In this document: one piece after another, positions 30,939 through 40,472 of the stretch
Layout of the letters: every line of letters begins with the position of its first letter
How positions within the stretch are numbered: position 1 is the first letter of the stretch
Assembly (NCBI GenBank): GCA_964484795.1
Contig: CAZAFN010000004.1
Location: 13-64,012, forward strand
Reading direction: 5' to 3'
DNA: 64,000 bases
Origin: an uncultured Alphaproteobacteria bacterium
GTDB taxonomy: Bacteria > Pseudomonadota > Alphaproteobacteria > Methylaequorales > Methylaequoraceae
The notes under the pieces: model-generated
What the model saw: only the letters and a program-made list of their open reading frames with translations
Databases searched by the model: none
What the model was told of the DNA's origin: nothing
Translations under genes and position numbers: made by a program

Positions 30939-32538
30939 AAAATTCTTTTTAACACTGTTTTTTTTTCTCATTAGTTTCCAAGTTTTTTCAAAAGAAGCGG
31001 AAAAAAATAATTATGGAAATTATTTGTCTTGGAATTTTGCAAGACAAACAGGTGATGTAGACAGAATAAAGGACTTATTTGTAAATATTAAAATACATGA
31101 AATTGCCCCCAATTTGTTGGAGGAGGTTTTTTTTGAATCAGTCGTTTTCAACGAATGGTCGGAAGCCAGGAAAATTAGTGATTTTATTTTAAAACAAGAT
31201 GAGATTAATTTTACAGCCAATCTTTTTAACTTTGTTGATGAATTTTTAAAAAAAAATGATCAATCAAAGAAGTTTATAAAAAAAATAGATACAAACCATT
31301 TTGATTCTAATTTCATTAAAGTTTTATTATTATGGTCGTCAAATTCGATCAAAGAAATAGATGATATTAATAATAATATAGATTGTATTCCTCTAATCTG
31401 TCTGCATTCTGGAATTTTCTTAATGTTATCTAATGACAAGACTAAAGCTGAAAATTATTTCAACAAACTTCTACACAGTAAATTTGCGTCTTATAGAATT
31501 AAAGAATTATTATTAAATAATTACCTAGAACTAAAAAGATTTGATGTTGCTGAAAATATCTTAAATGATTTGAATGAATTGGAATTAAATTTTAAGAATT
31601 TAGATTCTAAGTATTTTTTAAAAAAAAGTTATTTTCTTAATCCAGTTTTAAATAACCAACATGGTTTGGCAGAAGTTTTTTATAATATTTCAAGTTGGTA
31701 TTATTCAAAAGATTTGTATAAATATGCTGCCTTTTTTGGAAAAATTGCACTTAGACTCCGTCCTGATTTTAATGCAATGAAATTGTTATTAGTTGGTTCT
31801 TATGAGAAATTAGGGTATAGGAAGCTAGCAATTGAATCTTTAAAAGGAATAAATGAAAATAATCTGTATTTTTTAAAATTTTTTAAAATAAAAATTTCTC
31901 TTTTTGAAGAAATATCAGAAAATGAAGAAATTTTGAATGATTTAAAAAAATTGGTAAAGAAATTCCCTAAAAATTTAGAAATGAAAATTTTACTTGCAGA
32001 CAAATTGAGATCAATTGGGGATTATAATGGATCAATTAAATATTACACTGAAATTATAGAGGATATAGTGGTTGATGATAAATGGAGTGTTTATTATTCT
32101 AGAGGTATAGCCTACGAACGTTCCAATCAATGGCAGGATGCAGAGAATGATTTGAAGCAAGCTCTTAAGCTAAAACCTAATGATCCTTATGTTTTAAATT
32201 ATTTGGCTTATAGTTGGTTGGATAGAAATACTAATGTAAATCAAGCATTGGAGTTACTTAAGATGGCTGTCGAAATTGAACCGAGTGATGCTTATATAAC
32301 AGATTCACTTGGTTGGGCATATTATCTTTCTGGGTTTATAGAAAAATCAATCTACTTTTTGGAAAAAGCAGTTTCGCTTTCTCCTAATGATTCAACATTA
32401 AATGACCATCTTGGTGACGCATATTGGAAAGCAGGAAGAACAAACGAAGCTTTGTCTCAATGGAAGAGGGTTCTTATTTTTGATCCGAGTTTTAAAAAAA
32501 AAGAATATGTTAGGCAAAAAATCGAAAAAGGACTCTAA
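30859..32538 (+). CDS. TPR-repeat exported protein
   Basis: 559 aa ORF with a signal-like FFLTLFFFLISFQVFS, then long TPR arrays. The C-terminal TPRs are YYSRGIAYERSNQWQDAENDLKQALKLKPND. The real start is probably near 30940, a non-ATG or internal start, because the ORF's 5' end overlaps the etfD 3' end. Confidence 0.65.
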   Translation: MTSKIQSKILYGFHPKEEVGQIILICKKFFLTLFFFLISFQVFSKEAEKNNYGNYLSWNFARQTGDVDRIKDLFVNIKIHEIAPNLLEEVFFESVVFNEWSEARKISDFILKQDEINFTANLFNFVDEFLKKNDQSKKFIKKIDTNHFDSNFIKVLLLWSSNSIKEIDDINNNIDCIPLICLHSGIFLMLSNDKTKAENYFNKLLHSKFASYRIKELLLNNYLELKRFDVAENILNDLNELELNFKNLDSKYFLKKSYFLNPVLNNQHGLAEVFYNISSWYYSKDLYKYAAFFGKIALRLRPDFNAMKLLLVGSYEKLGYRKLAIESLKGINENNLYFLKFFKIKISLFEEISENEEILNDLKKLVKKFPKNLEMKILLADKLRSIGDYNGSIKYYTEIIEDIVVDDKWSVYYSRGIAYERSNQWQDAENDLKQALKLKPNDPYVLNYLAYSWLDRNTNVNQALELLKMAVEIEPSDAYITDSLGWAYYLSGFIEKSIYFLEKAVSLSPNDSTLNDHLGDAYWKAGRTNEALSQWKRVLIFDPSFKKKEYVRQKIEKGL

Positions 32539-32551
32539 AATTATTGCTAAT

Positions 32552-33421
32552 ATGCTTTCAGAAGTAAAAAAAATATCTCCCGCCAAAATAAACTTGTATC
32601 TAGAGATTATAAATAAGAGAAGTGATGGTTACCATAATCTGGAAAGTTTAATGAGCTTTTGTGATTTTGGTGACGTCATTTCAGTCAAAAAGTCTAATGT
32701 TTTTCAATTAGATATAGTAGGACAGTTTAGCAAAAATTTGATTTCCAAAGATAATATAATTGTAGAGACGATAGAAAAATTACAAGATTTTTTTGATAGA
32801 GAATTTAAAGTTTATGTAAAGTTGACTAAGAATTTGCCAATATCATCAGGAATGGCTGGAGGATCCTCTAATGCCGCAACTTTAATTCGAGCTATAATTG
32901 ATCTGTATAAACTTAAAATTGAAAAAGAGCGAATCAATGAATTATTGATCTCAATTGGTTCAGATGTACCATTTTGTTTTTTTGGAAAAACAGCACTAGT
33001 TCAAGGTAAAGGAGAAAAAGTGAATTTTTTTTCAAAAGGTATTCCAGAGTTTTTTGTTCTTTTAGCAAACCCTAGACAACAAATTTCCACCAAAAAAATA
33101 TTTGAAAGACTTGAAATTAAATCAGTTAAAAGAAAAATGAATTCATTAGATTATTCTTCAGATGAAAATTTTGTACAACATATCAAAAACAGAAAAAATG
33201 ATTTAGAAATTCCTGCAATCAAACAGTGTAAAAAGATTTCTTATTTGTTAGATTTTTTTAATTCTCATACGGACTGTTTATTTAGTCGGATGACTGGTTC
33301 TGGTGCCACATGTTTTGCCGTATTCCAGACCAATAAGAAACTAATAAATGCTGAAAAAATTTTAAGGGAAAAGTTTAAAAATTACTGGATACAAAAAACT
33401 AAAATTGTAAATGAAATTTAA
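32552..33421 (+). CDS. ispE: 4-diphosphocytidyl-2-C-methyl-D-erythritol kinase
   Basis: GHMP kinase with PAKINLYL and SSGMAGGSSNAA motifs. The start is set at MLSEVKK. The longer ORF from 32402 overlaps the TPR gene. Confidence 0.85.
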   Translation: MLSEVKKISPAKINLYLEIINKRSDGYHNLESLMSFCDFGDVISVKKSNVFQLDIVGQFSKNLISKDNIIVETIEKLQDFFDREFKVYVKLTKNLPISSGMAGGSSNAATLIRAIIDLYKLKIEKERINELLISIGSDVPFCFFGKTALVQGKGEKVNFFSKGIPEFFVLLANPRQQISTKKIFERLEIKSVKRKMNSLDYSSDENFVQHIKNRKNDLEIPAIKQCKKISYLLDFFNSHTDCLFSRMTGSGATCFAVFQTNKKLINAEKILREKFKNYWIQKTKIVNEI

Positions 33422-33473
33422 GATATAATGGCTTGTATAAAAATCTAAAAATGTTTATGTTTTAATTTCAAGT

Positions 33474-33548
33474 TGGGGTGTGGCCAAGTGGTAAGGCACC
33501 GCTTTTTGGTAGCGGCATTCGTAGGTTCGAATCCTACCACCCCAGCCA
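33474..33548 (+). tRNA. tRNA-Gln (anticodon UUG)
   Basis: The cloverleaf was folded by hand. The acceptor TGGGGTG/CACCCCA has a U1:A72 pair and G73, which is the bacterial Gln identity. The anticodon stem is CCGCT/AGCGG with loop TTTTGGT. The T-arm is GTAGG-TTCGAAT-CCTAC, and the 3' CCA is encoded. Confidence 0.85.
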
Positions 33549-33559
33549 GTTGAAAAAAA

Positions 33560-34996
33560 ATGAATGAAAAAGTTAAGTCTTTAAAATCTATTTTTTTACT
33601 AATTGGATTCATTCTTTTTTTCATTCCTGACCTTTTCTTATTTACTGATAGTCTTGATTACAATGCTAAACTAACTCTTAGAATTATGATTGTGATGATC
33701 TTTTTTTGGTTAACCGAAACAATACCAACTTCAATCACTGCTCTGATTCCTATAATTGTATCACCATTTTATCTTGATCTAACTTTAAAAGAAATAATTG
33801 CACCGTATGCCAGTCCTGTTGTTTTTTTGCTGTTGGGGGGATTCATAATTGCCCTTGGTTTTGAAAAAAGTAATTTACATCAAAGAGTGGCTTTAAAAAC
33901 AATAATTACTTTTGGTAACACAAAAAAAAACCTGTTGTTTAGTTTTATTTTCTCAACTGCTTTTTTTAGTATGTGGCTTTCCAATACAGCTACTTGTCTG
34001 CTAATGCTACCAATTTTAAAATACATTATAGATAGCAATTTTAATACGGAGTATGACCAGTTATATTCTAAATTTCTTCTGCTATCTGTTGCCTATGCTT
34101 CATCCATTGGAGGGATGAGCACCCCAATTGGTACAATACCTAATGCAATATTAGTTGGTTTTTTAGCAGATAATCACAACCTTCAGATTGATTTTATTTC
34201 CTGGGTTATTGCTATTATGCCATTAGTATTATTGCTTTTGTTTTGTTTATGTTTTTTTTTCTCTTTAAAAGTAAAAAATCTTAACCAAAAAATTAATCTT
34301 GAAAATATATTCACAAAATATAGAAAATTAGGTAAATTTTCTTATCAAGAAAAAATATCAAATTTTATTTTATTTTTTACTGCATGTCTGTGGGTTTTTA
34401 AGCCATCAATAAATTCTTTTTTTACAATAGAACTTACAGACTCTAGCATTGCTATATTAGGAGCATTTCTATTTTTTTTGTTTCAATCAAAAGAAATTAA
34501 AGATGGGTCAATTCTAAATTTTAGTTGGTTTAAAGAAATACCATGGAATATTTTGATACTTTTTGGAGGAGGTCTAACACTTGCATCACTGGTTGTCTCA
34601 ACAGGTTTGGCTAGAGAACTATCAAGTTTCTTAAATTTTTTAGGAGATTTAAATTTATTTTTAATAATTTTAATTTCGGCTCTTTTTATTTCTATCCTAA
34701 CAGAGTTTACAAGTAATACAGCGACTACTTTCTTGCTTTTACCTATTTTTGGTTCATTTGCAGTTAACAATGATTTAAATGTTGTTCAGATAATGTTGCC
34801 TGGAGTATTGGCTGCAAGCTGTGCGTTTATGATGCCAATATCAACTCCTCCTAATGCTATAATATATTCTACCAATAGGATAAGAATTTCTTTTATGATC
34901 TCAACAGGCTTTTTAATGAATTTTTTCTCTGTTTTCTTAATTACTCTTTATATATATTTCTTAGGAAAATTTAATTTTATTTCTTTTAATTTGTAA
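33560..34996 (+). CDS. DASS-family (SLC13-like) Na+-coupled anion symporter
   Basis: 478 aa with about 12 or more TM helices, an internal repeat and SNTAT / PPNAI hairpin-tip motifs. Confidence 0.8.
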   Translation: MNEKVKSLKSIFLLIGFILFFIPDLFLFTDSLDYNAKLTLRIMIVMIFFWLTETIPTSITALIPIIVSPFYLDLTLKEIIAPYASPVVFLLLGGFIIALGFEKSNLHQRVALKTIITFGNTKKNLLFSFIFSTAFFSMWLSNTATCLLMLPILKYIIDSNFNTEYDQLYSKFLLLSVAYASSIGGMSTPIGTIPNAILVGFLADNHNLQIDFISWVIAIMPLVLLLLFCLCFFFSLKVKNLNQKINLENIFTKYRKLGKFSYQEKISNFILFFTACLWVFKPSINSFFTIELTDSSIAILGAFLFFLFQSKEIKDGSILNFSWFKEIPWNILILFGGGLTLASLVVSTGLARELSSFLNFLGDLNLFLIILISALFISILTEFTSNTATTFLLLPIFGSFAVNNDLNVVQIMLPGVLAASCAFMMPISTPPNAIIYSTNRIRISFMISTGFLMNFFSVFLITLYIYFLGKFNFISFNL

Positions 34997-36255
34997 TGAT
35001 GAATATAGCAATATTAGTAGATTTAGAATTAAATGAAAAATCTGGTGGACATGTAAAATTCTGGGAAAGAATATGTTTTGCCCTAAAGAATGAAAAAAAT
35101 GATTTTAATTTGACTGTCTATTTTTTAGGTAAAGAAAGAAGGTCAATAAGAATTAACCAAAACATTGATTTTAAGATTTTAAAGCCAGTTTTTTCTTCAA
35201 AGATTTTAAGATGTATTGGAATTGATGCGGATCACACAGATTTATCTCCAATTAATATTAAATTATTATTTCTACTCCAAAATTTTGATATTATCCATAC
35301 GACTGATCAGCTATTTACAATGTCTAAAACAGCTAAACTAGCATCAAAATTTTGGAAAATCCCTTTAACAACATCGTATCATACAGATACCCCTTCTTAC
35401 TCAAAATATTATGTGCAGAAAATTATAAATTATTTTCCAAATGTAATTTCTAATTTTTTTACAAAGAAAATTAATTTAGCTAACAAAGTTGAAAAAAAAC
35501 AAAAAAAGAAAATTTTAGATTATTTAATGCATTGTAAATATGCAATGATTGATCAATCTCTGTCTGATAAATCATTTAATATGGAAAAGATAAGTTCTTG
35601 CTCAGTTGAAAAGATGTCTAGGGGCGTGGATAAAAATATTTTCAAAAAGAAAAATTTTAATAAAGATTTATTTCTTAAGAAATATAAAATTCCAAGAAAA
35701 AACAAACTGATTTTTTTTTGTGGTAGAATTCACGAATTAAAGGGTTCTACTTTTTTGTCCAAAATCCACAAGTCATTGTCTAGAAACCTTGGGAACATTA
35801 CCACCGTTCTGGCAGGTGAGAATATTAATGGAGAAGAGTGCAAAAGTATTGGAGGAAAAGATTTGATAATTATAAAACATCTAGATCAAATAGAGGTTTC
35901 ATCTTTTCTGAATGTTTGCGATCTTTTTGTATTTCCTTCTCTATTTGAAACTGGACCACAGGTTGTTTTAGAGGCTAAATCATGTGAAGCTGTTTGCGTT
36001 GTTTCTCCTAGTGGTGGTGGTAGAAGAATTGAGAAAAATGGATTTGATGGTGTAATAATTAAAAGGTATATTTTAAAAGATTGGATATTGGAAATTGAAG
36101 ATCTTTTAAAAAACCCAAAAAGAATTAATTTTATAAAGAATAATTTAAGAAAAAATTTCAATCAGCCTTCCTGGAAAAAAGTATTTGAGATCTATTTTTT
36201 AGAGAAATGGAAAAAAATTTATAGCAAAAATGCAAATGACTTGAAAATGCATTAG
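34996..36255 (+). CDS. Glycosyltransferase family 4 (GT-B, retaining; PIG-A/MshA/BshA-like)
   Basis: 419 aa with a C-terminal EX7E motif (FETGPQVVLEA) and a Gly-rich donor-binding loop. Its ATG overlaps the DASS stop. Confidence 0.8.
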   Translation: MMNIAILVDLELNEKSGGHVKFWERICFALKNEKNDFNLTVYFLGKERRSIRINQNIDFKILKPVFSSKILRCIGIDADHTDLSPINIKLLFLLQNFDIIHTTDQLFTMSKTAKLASKFWKIPLTTSYHTDTPSYSKYYVQKIINYFPNVISNFFTKKINLANKVEKKQKKKILDYLMHCKYAMIDQSLSDKSFNMEKISSCSVEKMSRGVDKNIFKKKNFNKDLFLKKYKIPRKNKLIFFCGRIHELKGSTFLSKIHKSLSRNLGNITTVLAGENINGEECKSIGGKDLIIIKHLDQIEVSSFLNVCDLFVFPSLFETGPQVVLEAKSCEAVCVVSPSGGGRRIEKNGFDGVIIKRYILKDWILEIEDLLKNPKRINFIKNNLRKNFNQPSWKKVFEIYFLEKWKKIYSKNANDLKMH

Positions 36256-36271
36256 AGGTAGAATTTTTTCT

Positions 36272-37024
36272 ATGAAAAACATATTGTTTATTATTCCGCA
36301 TCCTGATGATGAAATTGTTGGATCGTGCCTTATGATTAGGAATTTTCTAATTAGTGGTAAAAGAATTGTAATTTTTTTCCTAACTAATGGAGTGCTGTCT
36401 AAAGAATCAATGTGGCCATGGAAAAAAAAAAAATATGAACAATTGTTAACTTTAAGAAAGAAAGAAATGACTGAGTCAGTAAATTTTTTAGGAGTGGATG
36501 ATTTTTTATTTCAAAATATTCCAACTAGAACATTAAAAGATAAGATTTCTGAAACTTATTTCAAGATTAAGAAAACAATTATATCCAAACAGATTGATAC
36601 TATTTTTTGTCCAACTTATGAGGGTGGGCACCAGGATCATGATGTGGCTAACTTTATTTGTTCAAGACTAAAAAAATTTTGCAAAGTTTTTGAATTTTCA
36701 GAATATAATTTTTTTGGAAATAAGATTAATTCCAATGTGTTTATCAAGAAAACAGAAAACCAAAAATGCATCGTGCTTTCTGAAAATGACAAGCTATATA
36801 AGTCGGAGGGGCTCAAACTTTATAATTCAGAAAAAGGTAATCTTGGTTATATATCTCTAAATCAAGAATGTTATAGACCATTAGAAAATTATGATTATTC
36901 AAAACCACCTCATAAAGGAGTCTTGTTCTATAGAAGATTTAGTTTTTTTTCATATCATCCTAGAGTTGATGGTGATAGACCTGAGCTTGTTTGTGATAAG
37001 TTAATCAAGTCAAAAATTTATTAA
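36272..37024 (+). CDS. PIG-L/LmbE-family N-acetylglucosaminyl deacetylase
   Basis: 250 aa with the IIPHPDDEIVG zinc-binding motif and a downstream HQDH. Confidence 0.8.
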   Translation: MKNILFIIPHPDDEIVGSCLMIRNFLISGKRIVIFFLTNGVLSKESMWPWKKKKYEQLLTLRKKEMTESVNFLGVDDFLFQNIPTRTLKDKISETYFKIKKTIISKQIDTIFCPTYEGGHQDHDVANFICSRLKKFCKVFEFSEYNFFGNKINSNVFIKKTENQKCIVLSENDKLYKSEGLKLYNSEKGNLGYISLNQECYRPLENYDYSKPPHKGVLFYRRFSFFSYHPRVDGDRPELVCDKLIKSKIY

Positions 37025-37026
37025 GA

Positions 37027-38010
37027 ATGAAAATTCTGGAGAAATTTAAAGTAATAATTTTTTTATCTCTAGGGATATTTATTTTCGTATGGGTTTATGA
37101 TTTTTTTGCGGGTCCTGAATCTCTTCAGTTGGTTTTAAACAACAAGGAAAAATTGATATTATTAGTTTTAGCTCACATACCAACATTATATTTTGATTCT
37201 CTTGCTTGGGTTATCTTGATAAGCCATAAAAAACTTTCTCTTTTCTGGGCTTTTATTATAACGTGGGTAGCACAAACTTCTGGGAAATTTCTTCCAACTG
37301 GCAATATAACTGGAGAATTTGTTAGAATTTATCTTGGAATTAAGAAGGGATTAACAACTACAGAAGCTTCATCTACAGTATTTGCTGATTTAGTGCTGGC
37401 TACTTTTTCATTATTTATAATATCTGCATTTAGCCTTAGTTTTATTTTAAGTGCTAATATGGATATATTGTACCATAATTATAATCTCTATTTATATTTT
37501 TCATTGTTCTTGATATTTGTTGCTTGTTTGTTTTTTTATTGGGGTGTTAGGAAAAGGATATTAAAATTTTGTCTAAGGAATTCATTCAGGGTTTTTAAAT
37601 TTAGTTTTAAAAAAAAAATTATCCTGAATTTGTTAAAGTTAGATTTTTCATTATTTAAACTTAGTTCACAAAAGGTTACAGTTTTAAAAGCATTGTTGGC
37701 AAGGCTTTTAGGCTGGATTGGCGGCGCATTTGAAATATATGTTTTTTTGTGGATTATTGGGTATGATGCAAGCCTTATGGATGTGATTTTGTTAGAGTCA
37801 TTTGCTAGTATAATTAGAGCAATCGCATTTTTTATTCCTGCTGGATTGGGAGTGCAGGAATTAGCTTTTGTGTTGGTTGGCGAATATGTGGGTTTGACTG
37901 GATCTATTGCATTTTCCTTGGCCATAGGAAGAAGACTCAGAGAAGTAATGGTTGGTGTGCCAGCCATAGTTGCGTGGTTTTTTCTATTTAATCAAAGAAG
38001 AAAACAATAA
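37027..38010 (+). CDS. UPF0104 / lysyl-phosphatidylglycerol-synthase TM-region (MprF flippase-domain-like) membrane protein
   Basis: 327 aa with about 8 TM helices. It resembles the flippase-type domain of MprF/HpnL-like proteins and starts 2 nt after the deacetylase gene. Confidence 0.6.
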   Translation: MKILEKFKVIIFLSLGIFIFVWVYDFFAGPESLQLVLNNKEKLILLVLAHIPTLYFDSLAWVILISHKKLSLFWAFIITWVAQTSGKFLPTGNITGEFVRIYLGIKKGLTTTEASSTVFADLVLATFSLFIISAFSLSFILSANMDILYHNYNLYLYFSLFLIFVACLFFYWGVRKRILKFCLRNSFRVFKFSFKKKIILNLLKLDFSLFKLSSQKVTVLKALLARLLGWIGGAFEIYVFLWIIGYDASLMDVILLESFASIIRAIAFFIPAGLGVQELAFVLVGEYVGLTGSIAFSLAIGRRLREVMVGVPAIVAWFFLFNQRRKQ

Positions 38011-38133
38011 AGTGATTAAAATTTGGACATATTTATTATTGCGTAAAATATAAGCAACCAAAATAAGCGCTAATATTTCTTAAATTAAAAATATATTAGT
38101 AAATTCAGTTATTTACATAAAAAAAAATTAATT

Positions 38134-38150
38134 TGGCACGTTTTATGCTT
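38134..38150 (+). promoter_or_regulatory. Candidate sigma-54 (-24/-12) promoter upstream of amtB
   Basis: TGGCACG-TTTTA-TGCT matches TGGCAC-N5-TTGC, with the GG and GC doublets 12 nt apart. It lies about 40 nt upstream of the amtB ATG. Confidence 0.4.
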
Positions 38151-38189
38151 CATTAATTTGTTAAACTAATTTATTGAAGGGAGTAAATT

Positions 38190-39539
38190 ATGAACATTAA
38201 TAAGTTTAAAAAATCTATTGAACCATTGACTAGCAATTTCTTAAGTATTTTTGCTTTTGTTTCAGTCTTGGTTTTATCATTTAGTGTTGGCGCGGAGGAT
38301 CATATGGCTAAAGAAATTCCATCTGTGACTCCCGAAGTTGCATACATACTAAATACATTTCTATTTCTTGTATGTGGATTCTTAGTCATGTTTATGGCTG
38401 CAGGTTTTTGTATGCTTGAAGCCGGAATGGTAAGAAGTAAAAATACAGCAGTAATATGCCTTAAAAATGTTGGTTTATTTTCAATTGCAGGAATTATGTA
38501 TTTTCTAATTGGATATAACCTTATGTATGATGGTGTGGATGGAGGATTTTTAGGATCTTTTTCTTTATTTGATAGGAGTAATGAAGTTGACCTCGAAACA
38601 GGTTATGCCTCTGCGTCTGATTGGTACTTTCAAATGGTATTTGTTGCAACCGCAGCTTCAATAGTTTCTGGAGCATTGGCAGAAAGGATTCTAATTTGGC
38701 CATTCTTTCTATTTGTTGCAATTTTAACGGGTTTTATTTATCCGATTGCAGGCTCTTGGCAATGGGGTGAAGGTTGGCTAAATGAAATGGGATTTCTTGA
38801 TTTTGCTGGTTCTACTTTAGTGCATTCAGTAGGAGGATGGGCAGCACTTTCTGGTGCAATGCTTCTAGGGGCTAGAAAGGGTAGATTTGCAAATGATGGT
38901 TCTATAAAAATCTTGCCGGGTTGTTCATTGCCAATGACAACTTTAGGTGTATTTATTCTTTGGCTAGGTTGGTTTGGTTTTAACGGTGGTTCTCAATTAG
39001 CTCTTGGGTCTGGTGCTGATGCTACAGCAGTTGCTAATATTTTTGTAAATACAACTCTTGCTGCAGCCGGAGGTGTCATGGCTTGTATGATAGTTAGTAA
39101 ATTAACAAACAGTCATACAAATATTTCTGCGACTCTAAACGGTGCCATTGCAGGACTTGTAGCAATTACGGCTGAACCATTAACTCCAAGTATGGGGCAA
39201 GCCATAATAATTGGTGCAATAGGGGGCATCATTTGTATGTATGGAATGAAACTTCTAGATGAGCTTAAGATAGACGATGTTGTTGGAGCTATACCTGCTC
39301 ACTTGTTTGCTGGTATTTGGGGGACATTAATTGTAGCCTGGACGAATCAAGACGCTACATTGAAAGTACAGTTTATAGGTGTTCTGTCTTATGGGATATT
39401 TACTTTACTAGTTAGTTTTATTGTTTGGTATGCAATCAAAGCTTTTATTGGCATAAGAGCTTCAGATGAAGAAGAAGAATATGGACTAGATATGAGTGAA
39501 TTAGGCGCCATATCTTATCCTGACTTTACTAAAAAATAA
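38190..39539 (+). CDS. amtB: Ammonium transporter
   Basis: 449 aa Amt/MEP protein with a signal peptide, 11 TM helices, twin-His and DFAGSTLVHSVGGWAAL. Confidence 0.9.
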   Translation: MNINKFKKSIEPLTSNFLSIFAFVSVLVLSFSVGAEDHMAKEIPSVTPEVAYILNTFLFLVCGFLVMFMAAGFCMLEAGMVRSKNTAVICLKNVGLFSIAGIMYFLIGYNLMYDGVDGGFLGSFSLFDRSNEVDLETGYASASDWYFQMVFVATAASIVSGALAERILIWPFFLFVAILTGFIYPIAGSWQWGEGWLNEMGFLDFAGSTLVHSVGGWAALSGAMLLGARKGRFANDGSIKILPGCSLPMTTLGVFILWLGWFGFNGGSQLALGSGADATAVANIFVNTTLAAAGGVMACMIVSKLTNSHTNISATLNGAIAGLVAITAEPLTPSMGQAIIIGAIGGIICMYGMKLLDELKIDDVVGAIPAHLFAGIWGTLIVAWTNQDATLKVQFIGVLSYGIFTLLVSFIVWYAIKAFIGIRASDEEEEYGLDMSELGAISYPDFTKK

Positions 39540-39558
39540 ATAATATCTCCCCAAAAAA

Positions 39559-39584
39559 GGGTCTACTTAATTAGGCCCTTTTTC
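39559..39584. terminator. Bidirectional intrinsic terminator between amtB and the convergent gene
   Basis: Stem GGGTCTA / TAGGCCC (one G:U pair) with loop CTTAAT, flanked by A6 upstream and T5 downstream. Confidence 0.65.
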
Positions 39585-39647
39585 CTAAAGAAAAATTTAT
39601 TTTATTAATCAAGTGTTTATGATCAACTACCTGAAAAGTTAGCTGAT

Positions 39648-40472
39648 TTATTCACAGCTTAGTGAAGTTAAATCAATTTTTTCAAGATTTAATAACAATG
39701 AATAATCAGGATAATCATACTTAAAGAAACTGGCAATACCTTGTTCATTCAAATGTACAGTTTGTTCAAATATTGGTGTTTGAATGTTATCTTTATAGTA
39801 TGCCATTCTAATTTTTTTAAACTTGTTGACTACCCCTTTAGGTATTATTTTTTTTGACTCTCTTACAATCTCATCAGTAAAAAACACTGAGATTTTAAAG
39901 TATTTATCAGGAATTGTTCCTTCATAAACATTTCCTATAATCATTTTTTTTTGGCTTTGAAAGTTATCAATTATTTTTTCTAAAAATTTGTGAGGAAAAA
40001 TAACATCATTAGAGAAGGTGATTGTTTTTTTATCTCTCAAATTAACAGTTAATTCATCATTTTTTTCAGCTTTTCCAATCGTTCTATCAATTAGTTCAGC
40101 ATTTTCTTTGATCTCGAGAACAAAATCCATTTTTTGCCCGTCAGTTGATTCATTTACAGAGTAGTTAATTTCACTTAGTGTTCCAACACCGTGCGAATTC
40201 ACAAAGCGAGTAACCATCCGTTGATTTGATATCCAGGAATTATTACAATTATTAATCCAGTCGACGTAAAGATTTCCTGATGCTTCATCAACGTATGTTT
40301 TCCCAGGAATTCTTGTTTCACCCGATTCAAACAAGTTAATACTATACTCGCTTTGGTAAGATAATAAATTATTCTTCGCATAGATATTATCAGCAAAAAA
40401 ACAATAAATGATTGTAACTATTAAAATTTTGAAAAAAATGTTCATGGTGTCAGAAAATGTATTTACTATCAT
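39648..40472 (-). CDS. Hypothetical exported protein
   Basis: 274 aa with an N-terminal signal-like hydrophobic segment. No motif was recognised confidently. Confidence 0.45.
   Translation of the reverse strand: MIVNTFSDTMNIFFKILIVTIIYCFFADNIYAKNNLLSYQSEYSINLFESGETRIPGKTYVDEASGNLYVDWINNCNNSWISNQRMVTRFVNSHGVGTLSEINYSVNESTDGQKMDFVLEIKENAELIDRTIGKAEKNDELTVNLRDKKTITFSNDVIFPHKFLEKIIDNFQSQKKMIIGNVYEGTIPDKYFKISVFFTDEIVRESKKIIPKGVVNKFKKIRMAYYKDNIQTPIFEQTVHLNEQGIASFFKYDYPDYSLLLNLEKIDLTSLSCE

What the first reader, a model, noticed from the sequence alone, without database searches (positions are those of the whole stretch)
33474..38010. tRNA-Gln-adjacent operon (DASS transporter, GT4, PIG-L deacetylase, MprF-type flippase domain) that could make an amino-sugar glycolipid
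Four co-directional genes with overlapping or 2-nt-spaced junctions follow tRNA-Gln directly. The GT4 enzyme carries an EX7E motif. Paired with a PIG-L/LmbE deacetylase carrying HPDDE, it is the same two-step logic as eukaryotic GPI (PIG-A then PIG-L) and as mycothiol/bacillithiol (MshA/MshB, BshA/BshB): GlcNAc transfer, then de-N-acetylation to a free-amine sugar. The third partner here is not a ligase. It is a polytopic UPF0104 protein related to the lipid-flippase domain of MprF. That suggests the acceptor is a membrane lipid and the product is a cationic GlcN-lipid flipped to the outer leaflet. Location next to a tRNA gene and a transporter suggests an acquired islet.
Basis: inference. Interest (0 to 1): 0.65.

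Follow-up and report, generated by a model that had tools for sequence, protein, structure and literature searches.

The report
Aminosugar-lipid synthesis and flipping module
A SAR11-like marine bacterium carries a conserved three-gene set (sugar transferase, de-acetylase, MprF/HpnL-type membrane protein) that most likely makes an amino-sugar-headed membrane lipid and moves it across the membrane. This kind of system was proven in two pathogens in 2023 and 2025, but here it is built from different enzyme families.

Summary
In detail: tRNA-Gln is followed by four co-directional genes (DASS transporter, GT4 with EX7E, PIG-L with HPDDE, UPF0104/LPG_synthase_TM).

- The conserved unit is GT4–PIG-L–UPF0104, not four genes. 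It is present in 32 of 32 related SAR11-like genomes.
- DASS is missing in 6 of those 32, and it is absent from all 90 distant loci.
- The "acquired islet" idea fails. tRNA-Gln and the flanking genes are syntenic, GC3 equals that of the neighbours, and there is no att repeat.
- Tight junctions are the norm in this genome (median gap 4 nt), so they carry little weight.

The lipid reading gains independent support.
- In distant bacteria the same GT4–PIG-L pair sits beside an HpnL-family UPF0104 gene in four different arrangements (28 loci).
- Natural UPF0104–GT4 fusion proteins exist.
- One branch of the GT4 subfamily lies inside hopanoid clusters.

Against it, the GT4's nearest solved folds are MshA and BshA, which use soluble acceptors.

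The transferase–deacetylase–flippase logic is already known (hexSDF, gpgSDF; compare HpnI/HpnK). This is a new variant of a known kind. The acceptor lipid, the donor sugar and the flipping step remain inferred.

The parts
34996..36255 (+). GT4 retaining glycosyltransferase (419 aa) of a distinct subfamily. It is the predicted N-acetylhexosamine transferase acting on a lipid hydroxyl.
   Evidence: - PF00534 8e-21 and PF13692 2e-14; no NCBIfam equivalog is reached.
- EX7E (E318/E326) and the N-terminal motifs GGHVKFWE, [ST]DLxP, HTTD and SxHTDxPxY are conserved across phyla.
- AF2 model: pLDDT 90, GT-B fold. Nearest solved folds are MshA and BshA.
- No TM segment.
- About 122 clusters (50% identity) at E<=1e-30.
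- Fused to UPF0104 in P0476, P0498 and L115.
- A member of the subfamily sits in the hopanoid cluster of L049.
36272..37024 (+). PIG-L/LmbE-family zinc de-N-acetylase (250 aa) with a family-specific C-terminal half.
   Evidence: - PF02585 1e-21 over residues 5-130.
- Weak hits to BshB1/BshB2, far below their cut-offs.
- Nearest solved relative by sequence is diacetylchitobiose deacetylase 3we7.
- H10-P-D-D-E14, D122 and H123 are invariant and H120 is conserved in at least 90% of sequences, with many conserved C-terminal residues in 26 sequences from SAR11 to soil lineages.
- Adjacent to the GT4 in 32 of 32 SAR11-like and 73 of 90 distant loci.
37027..38010 (+). UPF0104 / LPG_synthase_TM polytopic membrane protein (327 aa). 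It is a divergent HpnL-subfamily member and the predicted lipid translocator or partner.
   Evidence: - PF03706 2e-27.
- TIGR03476 HpnL at 162 bits, full length, below the 195.65 cut-off. Its counterparts in distant loci score 225-296 bits, above the cut-off.
- About 8 hydrophobic segments.
- AF2 model: pLDDT 82. Its only meaningful PDB matches are MprF structures 9goe, 9j8q and 7f47 (prob 1.00, TMq 0.57-0.60).
33560..34996 (+). DASS-family anion:Na+ symporter (478 aa). It is a facultative neighbour and probably not part of the module.
   Evidence: - TIGR00785 at 261 bits against a cut-off of 198.6; PF00939 3e-59.
- Present directly upstream of the GT4 in 26 of 32 SAR11-like loci. Absent in L021, L022, L024, L025, L027 and L028.
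- Absent in all 90 distant loci.
33474..33548 (+). tRNA-Gln(TTG). A conserved landmark, not an integration site.
   Evidence: - ARAGORN and Rfam at 65 bits.
- The same tRNA sits at the same place after ispE in L002, L005, L010, L021, L023 and L028.
- No repeat of its 3' end elsewhere in the window.

Best explanation
GT4–PIG-L–UPF0104 is a membrane-lipid head-group modification module of the synthase–deacetylase–flippase type.

Proposed steps:
1. The soluble, cytoplasmic retaining GT4 transfers an N-acetylhexosamine onto a free hydroxyl of a membrane lipid at the inner face of the cytoplasmic membrane. The donor is most likely GlcNAc from UDP-GlcNAc.
2. The cytoplasmic zinc-dependent PIG-L enzyme removes the acetyl group, leaving a free amine.
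3. The HpnL-type UPF0104 protein, which has the fold of the MprF flippase domain, works physically with the GT4 and moves the modified lipid to the outer leaflet.

In a SAR11-like cell, with no hopanoid cyclase seen, the acceptor is most likely phosphatidylglycerol (giving zwitterionic GlcN-PG) or diacylglycerol (giving a cationic, phosphorus-free lipid).

Shown here: enzyme families, intact catalytic motifs, the fold of the membrane protein, conservation of the triad, and its linkage in other phyla including gene fusions.

Inferred: the donor sugar, the acceptor lipid, the order of deacetylation and flipping, and the flipping itself.

DASS and tRNA-Gln are neighbours only.
For: 1. The triad is invariant in 32 of 32 SAR11-like genomes while its flanks change: ABC-F is present or absent, DASS is present or absent, and amtB is inverted in some.
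2. Linkage outside SAR11 is independent of that synteny. In 90 distant loci carrying the same GT4 subfamily, PIG-L is adjacent in 73. A UPF0104 homolog is adjacent in 28, in four arrangements: UPF>GT4>PIG-L, GT4>PIG-L>UPF, convergent, and divergent. Where both flanks are readable, 13 of 33 PIG-L-bearing loci have UPF0104, against 0 of 8 loci without PIG-L.
3. Rosetta-stone fusions of PF03706 with this GT4 subfamily exist in P0476 (791 aa), P0498 (727 aa), the fragment P0515 and the ORF L115:7074-9239. They place the GT4 at the membrane beside the UPF0104 domain.
4. The distant partners are bona fide TIGR03476 HpnL (225-296 bits against 195.65). The window protein is a full-length sub-threshold match at 162 bits.
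5. A branch of the GT4 subfamily lies inside a hopanoid cluster, HpnE-SHC-HpnG-HpnA-GT4-NTP transferase-ROK kinase. That points to a lipid polyol acceptor.
6. The UPF0104 model matches only MprF structures. COG0392 proteins were predicted to be flippases, and a UPF0104 + deacetylase + GT neighbourhood was already noted in archaea (PMC5898192).
7. There is experimental precedent for the same logic. gpgSDF makes GlcNAc-PG and then GlcN-PG, also when expressed in E. coli (PMC12713373). hexSDF makes aminohexosyl-hexosyl-diradylglycerol (PMC10128005). HpnI and HpnK make BHT-GlcN (PMC12583986).
8. The catalytic motifs are intact: EX7E, HPDDE and HxDH. GT4 and PIG-L have no TM segment or signal-like N-terminus.
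Against: - Foldseek ranks MshA (E 1.5e-17) and BshA above lipid-linked-acceptor GT4s such as PglA and PimB' (4-7e-14). The PIG-L's best NCBIfam hits are BshB1/BshB2, at about 30 bits against cut-offs above 180.
- The GT4 is not a GpgS ortholog: NF053787 gives 27.8 bits against 480.
- Where both flanks are readable, about 60% of distant GT4–PIG-L loci (20 of 33) have no adjacent UPF0104. The membrane protein is therefore not obligatory in cis.
- In both characterised systems the flippase gene is dispensable for making the lipid, and flipping has never been shown.
- No product has been observed, and I found no report of a hexosamine lipid in SAR11.
- Within SAR11 alone, adjacency is weak evidence because the genome is tightly packed and syntenic.
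Confidence: 0.6

Rival explanations
1. The pair makes a soluble GlcN-conjugate in the manner of BshA/BshB or MshA/MshB. GlcNAc is transferred to a small cytoplasmic acceptor, such as a dicarboxylate imported by the adjacent DASS transporter, and is then deacetylated. The product would be a precursor of a low-molecular-weight thiol or a solute. UPF0104 would be an exporter or unrelated.
For: - Nearest solved folds of the GT4 are MshA and BshA. By profile search, MshA and BshA rank just after GlgA among solved chains.
- The PIG-L's only NCBIfam hits are BshB1, BshB2 and Mca.
- DASS lies directly upstream in 26 of 32 SAR11-like loci.
- A rhodanese (sulfur-transfer) gene follows PIG-L in 36 distant loci.
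- Most distant pairs stand alone without a membrane partner.
Against: - All of those matches are far below family cut-offs. For the GT4 they cover only the donor-binding C-terminal half, and the acceptor-side N-domain has no sequence match in PDB.
- UPF0104–GT4 fusions and the four-arrangement linkage to HpnL are hard to explain for a soluble product.
- A subfamily member sits in a hopanoid cluster.
- None of the recurrent neighbour clusters that were annotated among more than 120 loci is a ligase.
- DASS is absent from every distant locus and from 6 SAR11-like genomes.
Confidence: 0.15
2. The pair decorates LPS (lipid A-core) or a polyprenyl-linked glycan with glucosamine. This would resemble the two-step GlcNAc transfer and deacetylation used for enterobacterial core GlcN (WabH/WabN, recalled from memory) or the Bordetella Lgm system. 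UPF0104 would assist translocation of the intermediate.
For: - Weak NCBIfam hits to LPS GlcNAc-transferase PRK15484 (42.8 bits) and TuaC (57 bits).
- A GT9 heptosyltransferase lies about 1.5 kb upstream in 6 distant loci.
- PglA and PimB', which use lipid-linked acceptors, are among the close fold matches.
- The acceptor would still be membrane-bound, so this reading fits the fusions.
Against: - No GT-C (ArnT-like) transferase, Wzx/MsbA-type gene or other LPS or O-antigen gene is recurrently adjacent.
- In SAR11-like genomes the triad sits among housekeeping genes, not in a glycan cluster.
- Polyprenyl-phosphate sugar synthases are normally GT2, not GT4 (established knowledge).
Confidence: 0.12
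3. In the SAR11-like lineage the acceptor is an isoprenoid lipid, and the module is a non-orthologous analogue of HpnI/HpnK(/HpnJ)/HpnL. The acceptor would be hopanoid-like, carotenoid-derived or a polyprenol rather than a glycerolipid.
For: - The membrane partner belongs to the HpnL family.
- The GT4 subfamily occurs in hopanoid clusters.
- A radical-SAM gene is inserted in the pair in L046 and L056, echoing HpnJ.
- Isoprenoid genes recur nearby: ispE in SAR11-like loci, ispH in L037, a polyprenyl synthase in L035, and ispD/ispF in L046.
Against: - No squalene-hopene-cyclase-like ORF occurs in the window or in any SAR11-like locus. SAR11 is not known to make hopanoids (my own knowledge; no supporting paper was found).
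- The neighbours of L056 are unrelated to hopanoids.
- ispE is separated from the triad by a tRNA and by variable genes.
Confidence: 0.07
4. In SAR11 the UPF0104 gene is only a syntenic neighbour of an unrelated GT4–PIG-L pair, so there is no three-gene system in this genome.
For: - Tight spacing and conserved synteny are general properties of this genome.
- Distant genomic loci from named taxa (L032-L041) show the pair without UPF0104.
Against: - The same association recurs in four arrangements, and as fusions, in unrelated lineages.
- The flanks vary while the triad stays intact in 32 of 32 genomes.
Confidence: 0.05

Closest known systems
gpgSDF of Pseudomonas aeruginosa (GlcN-phosphatidylglycerol synthesis; Khan, Palmer & Guan 2025, PMC12713373)
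   Same: Both are three-gene sets: a GT4 glycosyltransferase, a cytoplasmic deacetylase and a stand-alone UPF0104/COG0392 membrane protein. The chemistry is GlcNAc transfer to a lipid followed by de-N-acetylation. The enzymes are predicted to be cytoplasmic and the third protein membrane-bound.
   Different: - The deacetylase there is COG3233, not PIG-L.
- The GT4 here is not an ortholog: NF053787 gives 27.8 bits against a cut-off of 480. It also has its own N-terminal motifs.
- The product here is unknown.
- The partner here is HpnL-like.
hexSDF of Clostridioides difficile (aminohexosyl-hexosyl-diradylglycerol; PMC10128005)
   Same: Synthase–deacetylase–MprF-like flippase operon that makes an amino-sugar glycolipid. 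The acetylated intermediate accumulates without the deacetylase.
   Different: - HexS is annotated as MGDG-synthase-like and HexD as a polysaccharide deacetylase (CE4 type), which may act outside the cell.
- It is a Gram-positive system, regulated by a two-component system.
- The enzymes are not homologous to those here beyond the UPF0104 component.
Hopanoid side-chain genes HpnI (GT), HpnK (deacetylase), HpnJ (radical SAM), with the uncharacterised HpnL (TIGR03476)
   Same: The chemistry is GlcNAc transfer to a lipid polyol (BHT) followed by deacetylation. The membrane partner here belongs to, or lies next to, the HpnL family. The GT4 subfamily occurs in hopanoid clusters. A radical-SAM variant of the pair exists.
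   Different: - No NCBIfam Hpn model matched the GT4 or the PIG-L. From memory only, HpnI is a GT2 and HpnK is YdjC-like, which are different folds from GT4 and PIG-L.
- No hopanoid cyclase occurs in the window or in SAR11-like loci.
- The function of HpnL is still described as unknown.
MshA/MshB (mycothiol), BshA/BshB (bacillithiol) and eukaryotic PIG-A/PIG-L (GPI)
   Same: Each is a GT4 GlcNAc-transferase paired with a PIG-L/LmbE zinc deacetylase. MshA and BshA are the nearest solved folds.
   Different: - Scores are far below family cut-offs: MshA 34 against 462, BshA 32 against 274, BshB about 30 against more than 180.
- No ligase partner is present.
- A membrane partner is linked and sometimes fused, which those soluble pathways lack.
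- PIG-A acts on phosphatidylinositol, which SAR11 is not known to make.
MprF and archaeal AglD
   Same: The UPF0104/LPG_synthase_TM domain has the MprF flippase-domain fold. Like AglD (GT2 + UPF0104) and MprF (UPF0104 + synthase), some relatives fuse the membrane domain to the head-group-modifying enzyme.
   Different: There is no aminoacyl-PG synthase domain (bifunctional MprF model: 19 bits against 600). The fused or adjacent enzyme is a GT4, not a GT2 or a tRNA-dependent synthase.

Membership tests
GT4 retaining glycosyltransferases (Pfam Glycos_transf_1 / GT-B) | Profile match above the gathering score, a GT-B two-Rossmann fold, and an EX7E motif in the C-terminal domain | tested here: met
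   PF00534 at 74.7 bits against 26.4. AF2 model with pLDDT 90 matches GT4 structures at TM about 0.7. E318/E326 are invariant.
GpgS (N-acetylglucosaminyl-PG synthase, NF053787) | Equivalog HMM score at or above 480 bits | tested here: not met
   27.8 bits for the window protein and 64-81 bits for distant subfamily members, over the C-terminal domain only.
MshA / BshA | Equivalog HMM scores (462.5 / 273.7 bits) | tested here: not met
   34.1 and 32.4 bits. They are only the nearest solved folds.
PIG-L / LmbE zinc deacetylases | PF02585 match, plus the metal and catalytic motifs (A/P)HPDD and HxxH/HxDH | tested here: met
   78.3 bits against 28.2. H10-P-D12-D13-E14, D122 and H123 are invariant and H120 is conserved in at least 90% of 26 diverse members. 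The motifs align with those of diacetylchitobiose deacetylase 3we7.
BshB1 / BshB2 / MshB-Mca | Equivalog HMM scores (182-277 bits) | tested here: not met
   27-33 bits for BshB1/BshB2 and 15.5 bits for Mca.
UPF0104 / LPG_synthase_TM (MprF flippase-type domain, COG0392) | PF03706 match, a polytopic topology of about 8 TM segments, and the MprF membrane-domain fold | tested here: met
   96.9 bits against 33.4. About 8 hydrophobic segments. Foldseek hits only MprF structures 9goe, 9j8q and 7f47 with prob 1.00.
UPF0104 / LPG_synthase_TM (MprF flippase-type domain, COG0392) | Lipid translocation activity | not testable with these tools
   Flipping is unproven even for GpgF and HexF.
HpnL (TIGR03476) | Subfamily HMM score at or above 195.65 bits | tested here: not met
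   The window protein scores 162.3 bits, full length (5-315 of 318). The counterparts next to GT4–PIG-L in distant loci score 225-296 bits and do qualify. The window protein is best called a divergent HpnL-like member.
HpnL (TIGR03476) | Location in a hopanoid biosynthesis locus | tested here: not met
   No SHC-like ORF in the window or in any SAR11-like locus. The neighbours are housekeeping genes.
Synthase–deacetylase–flippase aminoglycolipid modules (hexSDF / gpgSDF type) | Co-located GT, N-deacetylase and stand-alone UPF0104 genes, conserved as a unit | tested here: met
   32 of 32 SAR11-like genomes. 28 distant loci in four arrangements, plus fusions.
Synthase–deacetylase–flippase aminoglycolipid modules (hexSDF / gpgSDF type) | Production of a HexNAc-lipid intermediate and a HexN-lipid product | not testable with these tools
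   Needs lipidomics of expressing cells.
tRNA-associated genomic island | Variable presence among relatives, atypical composition, an att repeat of the tRNA 3' end, and mobility genes | tested here: not met
   Synteny is conserved, including the tRNA. GC is flat and GC3 of 0.20-0.25 equals that of the neighbours. No repeat of the tRNA 3' end. No integrase among the called genes.
DASS anion:Na+ symporters | TIGR00785 at or above 198.6 bits | tested here: met
   261.4 bits. It is a family member, but its linkage to the triad is facultative.

The most novel reading that the evidence does not exclude
The GT4/PIG-L pair and HpnL-family proteins together form a widespread, uncharacterised pathway of about 120 GT4 sequence clusters, found from soil and peat bacteria to SAR11-like plankton. 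It would install a free-amine hexosamine on lipid polyols.
- In hopanoid producers it would be an alternative route to glucosaminyl-hopanoids. That would assign a function to HpnL, which the 2025-2026 literature still calls unknown.
- In a subclade of SAR11-like bacteria it would make a previously unreported glucosaminyl glycerolipid. This could be a phosphorus-free cationic HexN-diacylglycerol relevant to lipid budgets in nutrient-poor oceans.
Probability: 0.3. Interest if true: 0.7.

Novelty: new variant of a known kind. Interest (0 to 1): 0.5.

Why it matters
SAR11-type bacteria are among the most abundant cells in the ocean, and their membrane lipid make-up affects phosphorus and nitrogen budgets, phage adsorption and resistance to cationic compounds. 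If part of this group makes an amino-sugar lipid, it would add a lipid class not yet reported for them.

The comparative result is useful beyond this genome. It ties the HpnL family, whose function current hopanoid papers call unknown, to a specific GT4/PIG-L enzyme pair by gene order and by gene fusion. That gives a directly testable hypothesis for three uncharacterised families.

It also shows the synthase–deacetylase–flippase design assembled from yet another set of non-homologous enzymes, after hexSDF, gpgSDF and HpnI/HpnK. This suggests the design is a general solution for placing positive charge on the membrane surface.

Tried and rejected
- **Promoter and terminator scan of 32300-39700.** It found fewer sites than in shuffled sequence, so it is uninformative for operon boundaries.
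- **Rfam on the whole window.** It found only the tRNA, with no riboswitch or leader.
- **Source names of homolog clusters.** They gave no taxonomy finer than "Rickettsiales/Pseudomonadota bacterium", so I could not place the SAR11 subclade.
- **First widened UPF0104 profile.** It was contaminated by long ORFs containing GT domains and produced spurious hits on every GT4. I rebuilt it from SAR11-only sequences.
- **Long GT4 proteins other than the fusions.** P0477 and P0539 have C-terminal extensions that look like out-of-frame or unrelated sequence, not PIG-L. P0481 has a sulfotransferase-like N-terminus and P0520 an MMPL-like fragment. I did not use these as fusion evidence.
- **Radical-SAM variant.** I tested whether L046 and L056 are hopanoid-linked. 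L046 has MMPL, MlaC and OEP nearby, but L056 has unrelated neighbours, so I dropped this as an argument.
- **Sequence search of PDB with the GT4 profile.** It matched only the donor-binding half, so it says nothing about the acceptor.
- **Literature search for hexosamine lipids in SAR11.** It found nothing.
- **Islet hypothesis.** Rejected on synteny, composition and the absence of an att repeat.

Full report
**What is in the window**

ARAGORN and Rfam place tRNA-Gln(TTG) at 33474-33548. Four + strand ORFs follow: 33560-34996 (478 aa), 34996-36255 (419 aa), 36272-37024 (250 aa) and 37027-38010 (327 aa).
- DASS symporter: TIGR00785, 261 bits against 198.6.
- GT4: PF00534, 74.7 bits.
- PIG-L: PF02585, 78.3 bits.
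- LPG_synthase_TM/UPF0104: PF03706, 96.9 bits.

None of the three enzyme or membrane proteins reaches any NCBIfam equivalog.
- The GT4 scores 27.8 bits against GpgS (cut-off 480), 34 against MshA and 32 against BshA.
- The PIG-L scores about 30 bits against BshB.
- The UPF0104 protein is a full-length but sub-threshold match to TIGR03476 HpnL (162 against 195.65).

The junctions are 11 nt (tRNA/DASS), a 1-nt overlap, 16 nt and 2 nt. The median co-directional gap is 4 nt and 37% of pairs overlap. Tight spacing here is not evidence of an operon. Promoter and terminator scans were uninformative.

**Is it an islet?**

It is not. A pattern scan of one genome per species returned 42 loci encoding relatives of the GT4. 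Thirty-two are SAR11-like MAGs and SAGs, titled Pelagibacteraceae, Rickettsiales or uncultured Alphaproteobacteria. All 32 have the order etfQO–TPR–ispE–tRNA-Gln–[ABC-F]–[DASS]–GT4–PIG-L–UPF0104–amtB–EipB-like–cca–hemF.
- The ABC-F gene is missing only in the window and in its closest relative L023. It is absent from the whole window.
- DASS is missing in six genomes.
- amtB is inverted in five.
- The triad is intact in 32 of 32.

GC is flat across the region. GC3 of the four genes (0.20-0.25) equals that of the flanking housekeeping genes, and no copy of the tRNA 3' end exists elsewhere in the window. The window's own lineage appears on 13 metagenomic contigs with identical gene order. No record title names a cultured Pelagibacter strain. 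Because the scan is pattern-limited, this is only a hint that the triad is restricted to a subclade.

**The enzymes**

The GT4 belongs to a distinct subfamily. Besides the invariant EX7E (E318/E326), it has N-terminal motifs that are kept at 25-31% identity in Verrucomicrobiales, Kiloniellaceae, Odyssella and metagenomic relatives: LVDL, GGHVKFWE, [ST]DLxP, HTTD and SxHTDxPxY. An exhaustive profile search of 1.84 billion representatives finds 122 clusters at E<=1e-30. A profile search against PDB sequences matches only the C-terminal, donor-binding half.

An AlphaFold model (pLDDT 90) is closest to MshA (E 1.5e-17, TM 0.72), GlgM and BshA. PglA and PimB' follow a few orders of magnitude behind.

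The PIG-L protein keeps H10-P-D-D-E14, D122 and H123 invariantly and H120 in at least 90% of sequences. It also has a strongly conserved, family-specific C-terminal half. Its nearest solved relative by sequence is diacetylchitobiose deacetylase. Neither enzyme has a hydrophobic segment.

UPF0104 has about eight hydrophobic segments. Its model (pLDDT 82) matches only the MprF cryo-EM structures in PDB.

**Is the membrane protein really linked?**

In the ten distant genomic loci the GT4–PIG-L pair sits among unrelated genes without UPF0104. At first this suggested the linkage was SAR11 synteny only.

A metagenome scan seeded with the distant GT4s returned 80 more loci. Across these 90 distant loci:
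- PIG-L is adjacent in 73. Most of the remaining loci are truncated.
- A UPF0104 homolog is adjacent in 28, detected with a SAR11-only profile at E 1e-19 to 5e-41.
- It occurs in four arrangements: upstream co-directional (15, plus the fused ORF in L115), downstream co-directional (L073, L095), downstream convergent (about 10), and upstream divergent (L118).
- Where both flanks are readable, 13 of 33 PIG-L-bearing loci have it, against 0 of 8 loci that lack PIG-L.

These partners score 225-296 bits on TIGR03476, so they are HpnL proper. Natural fusion proteins join the PF03706 domain to this GT4 subfamily: P0476, P0498, the fragment P0515 and the 722-aa ORF in L115. DASS never appears in these loci. 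Gene-order shuffling together with fusion is classical evidence of a functional partnership, and it puts the GT4 at the membrane.

**A second pointer to a lipid acceptor**

Three loci (L049, L051, L053) carry the GT4 without PIG-L inside a hopanoid cluster. In L049 the order is HpnE, squalene-hopene cyclase, HpnG, HpnA, the GT4, a sugar-1-phosphate nucleotidyltransferase and a ROK kinase. All of the Hpn models score above trusted cut-offs.

In the canonical hopanoid pathway HpnI adds GlcNAc to bacteriohopanetetrol, HpnK deacetylates it, and HpnJ, a radical-SAM enzyme, contracts the ring (PMC12583986). HpnL is still described as of unknown function. A radical-SAM gene is inserted in the pair in L046 and follows it in L056. 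The surroundings of L056 are unrelated to hopanoids, so I leave this as a side observation. No cyclase-like ORF occurs in the window or in the SAR11-like loci.

**Comparison with what is known**

- P. aeruginosa gpgSDF consists of a GT4, a COG3233 deacetylase and a UPF0104 protein. It makes GlcNAc-PG and GlcN-PG, also when expressed in E. coli (PMC12713373).
- C. difficile hexSDF makes an aminohexosyl glycolipid (PMC10128005).
- Makarova et al. predicted all COG0392 proteins to be flippases and noted a UPF0104 + deacetylase + GT neighbourhood in archaea (PMC5898192).

In both experimental systems the third gene is dispensable for synthesis, and flipping has not been demonstrated. The window's module is not orthologous to either: it has a different GT4 subfamily, a PIG-L instead of a COG3233 or CE4 deacetylase, and an HpnL-type partner. 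I therefore file it as a new variant of a known kind.

**Most likely mechanism and its limits**

I consider a lipid-head-group N-acetylhexosaminylation and deacetylation pathway with an HpnL-type translocator the best explanation (confidence about 0.6). PG or DAG is the likeliest acceptor in a cell without hopanoids.

The main rival is a soluble BshA/BshB-like product (about 0.15). It draws on the fold ranking, the weak BshB hits, the DASS neighbour, and a rhodanese gene that follows PIG-L in 36 distant loci. It does not explain the fusions, the HpnL linkage or the hopanoid-cluster members. None of the recurrent neighbour clusters that were annotated is a ligase.

LPS or polyprenyl-linked targets (about 0.12) and an isoprenoid acceptor in SAR11 (about 0.07) remain possible. 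Donor, acceptor and flipping are all inferred, and lipidomics of an expressing host would settle them.

Noticed in passing
window 33549-33559; L002:6805-8592, L005:6733-8598, L021:8134-9957: Relatives carry an ABC-F-type ATPase of about 600 aa between tRNA-Gln and DASS or GT4. The window and its closest relative L023 lack it, and tblastn finds no copy anywhere in the 64-kb window.
   Followed up: partly
L049:580-11151 (also L051, L053): A member of the same GT4 subfamily, without PIG-L or UPF0104, sits in a complete hopanoid cluster: HpnE, SHC, HpnG, HpnA, the GT4, an NTP-transferase and a ROK kinase. It may be an undescribed hopanoid glycosyltransferase.
   Followed up: partly
L046:5555-8792; L056:7974-13427: A variant of the pair carries a radical-SAM/SPASM-like gene: GT4–rSAM–PIG-L in L046, and GT4 ... 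PIG-L–rSAM in L056. This echoes HpnI/HpnJ/HpnK and, from memory, BtrM/BtrN/BtrD. L046 also has MMPL, OEP, MlaC and a PEP-mutase fusion nearby. The neighbours of L056 are unrelated.
   Followed up: partly
e.g. L057:3481-4098 (36 distant loci): A rhodanese-domain protein of about 206 aa follows PIG-L on the same strand in 36 of the distant loci. It may be clade synteny or a sulfur-related step. It gives a weak hit to NCBIfam 'rhoda_near_glyco'.
   Followed up: no
e.g. L067:2970-3605 (12 loci): An ORF with no Pfam or NCBIfam match lies between HpnL and the GT4 in loci where the gap is 0.7-1.2 kb. The opposite strand also has an ORF, so the true gene is uncertain.
   Followed up: no
window 32558-33421 (ispE); L037:7723-8652 (ispH); L035:12060-12992 (polyprenyl synthase); L046:13736-14910 (ispD, ispF): Isoprenoid-pathway genes lie near the GT4–PIG-L pair in several unrelated lineages. 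This could be coincidence or a hint of an isoprenoid-lipid connection.
   Followed up: no
P0481 (823 aa), P0520 (785 aa): Two long relatives carry other N-terminal parts fused to the GT4. One is a sulfotransferase-like domain (HIPKTAGTS motif). The other is an MMPL-like membrane fragment, which may be a frameshift artefact.
   Followed up: no
L024:2466-15410: This SAG contig shows etfQO–TPR ... triad ... TPR–etfQO in inverted symmetry. It is probably a chimeric or palindromic amplification artefact rather than real biology.
   Followed up: no
L003, L006, L008, L018, L030 (amtB on the - strand): The ammonium transporter gene downstream of the triad is inverted in five relatives. This marks the downstream boundary of the conserved unit.
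   Followed up: no
window 39648-40472 (- strand): A 274-aa protein matches PF08904 EipB_like, a family of periplasmic envelope-integrity proteins. It is conserved downstream of amtB in most relatives.
   Followed up: no
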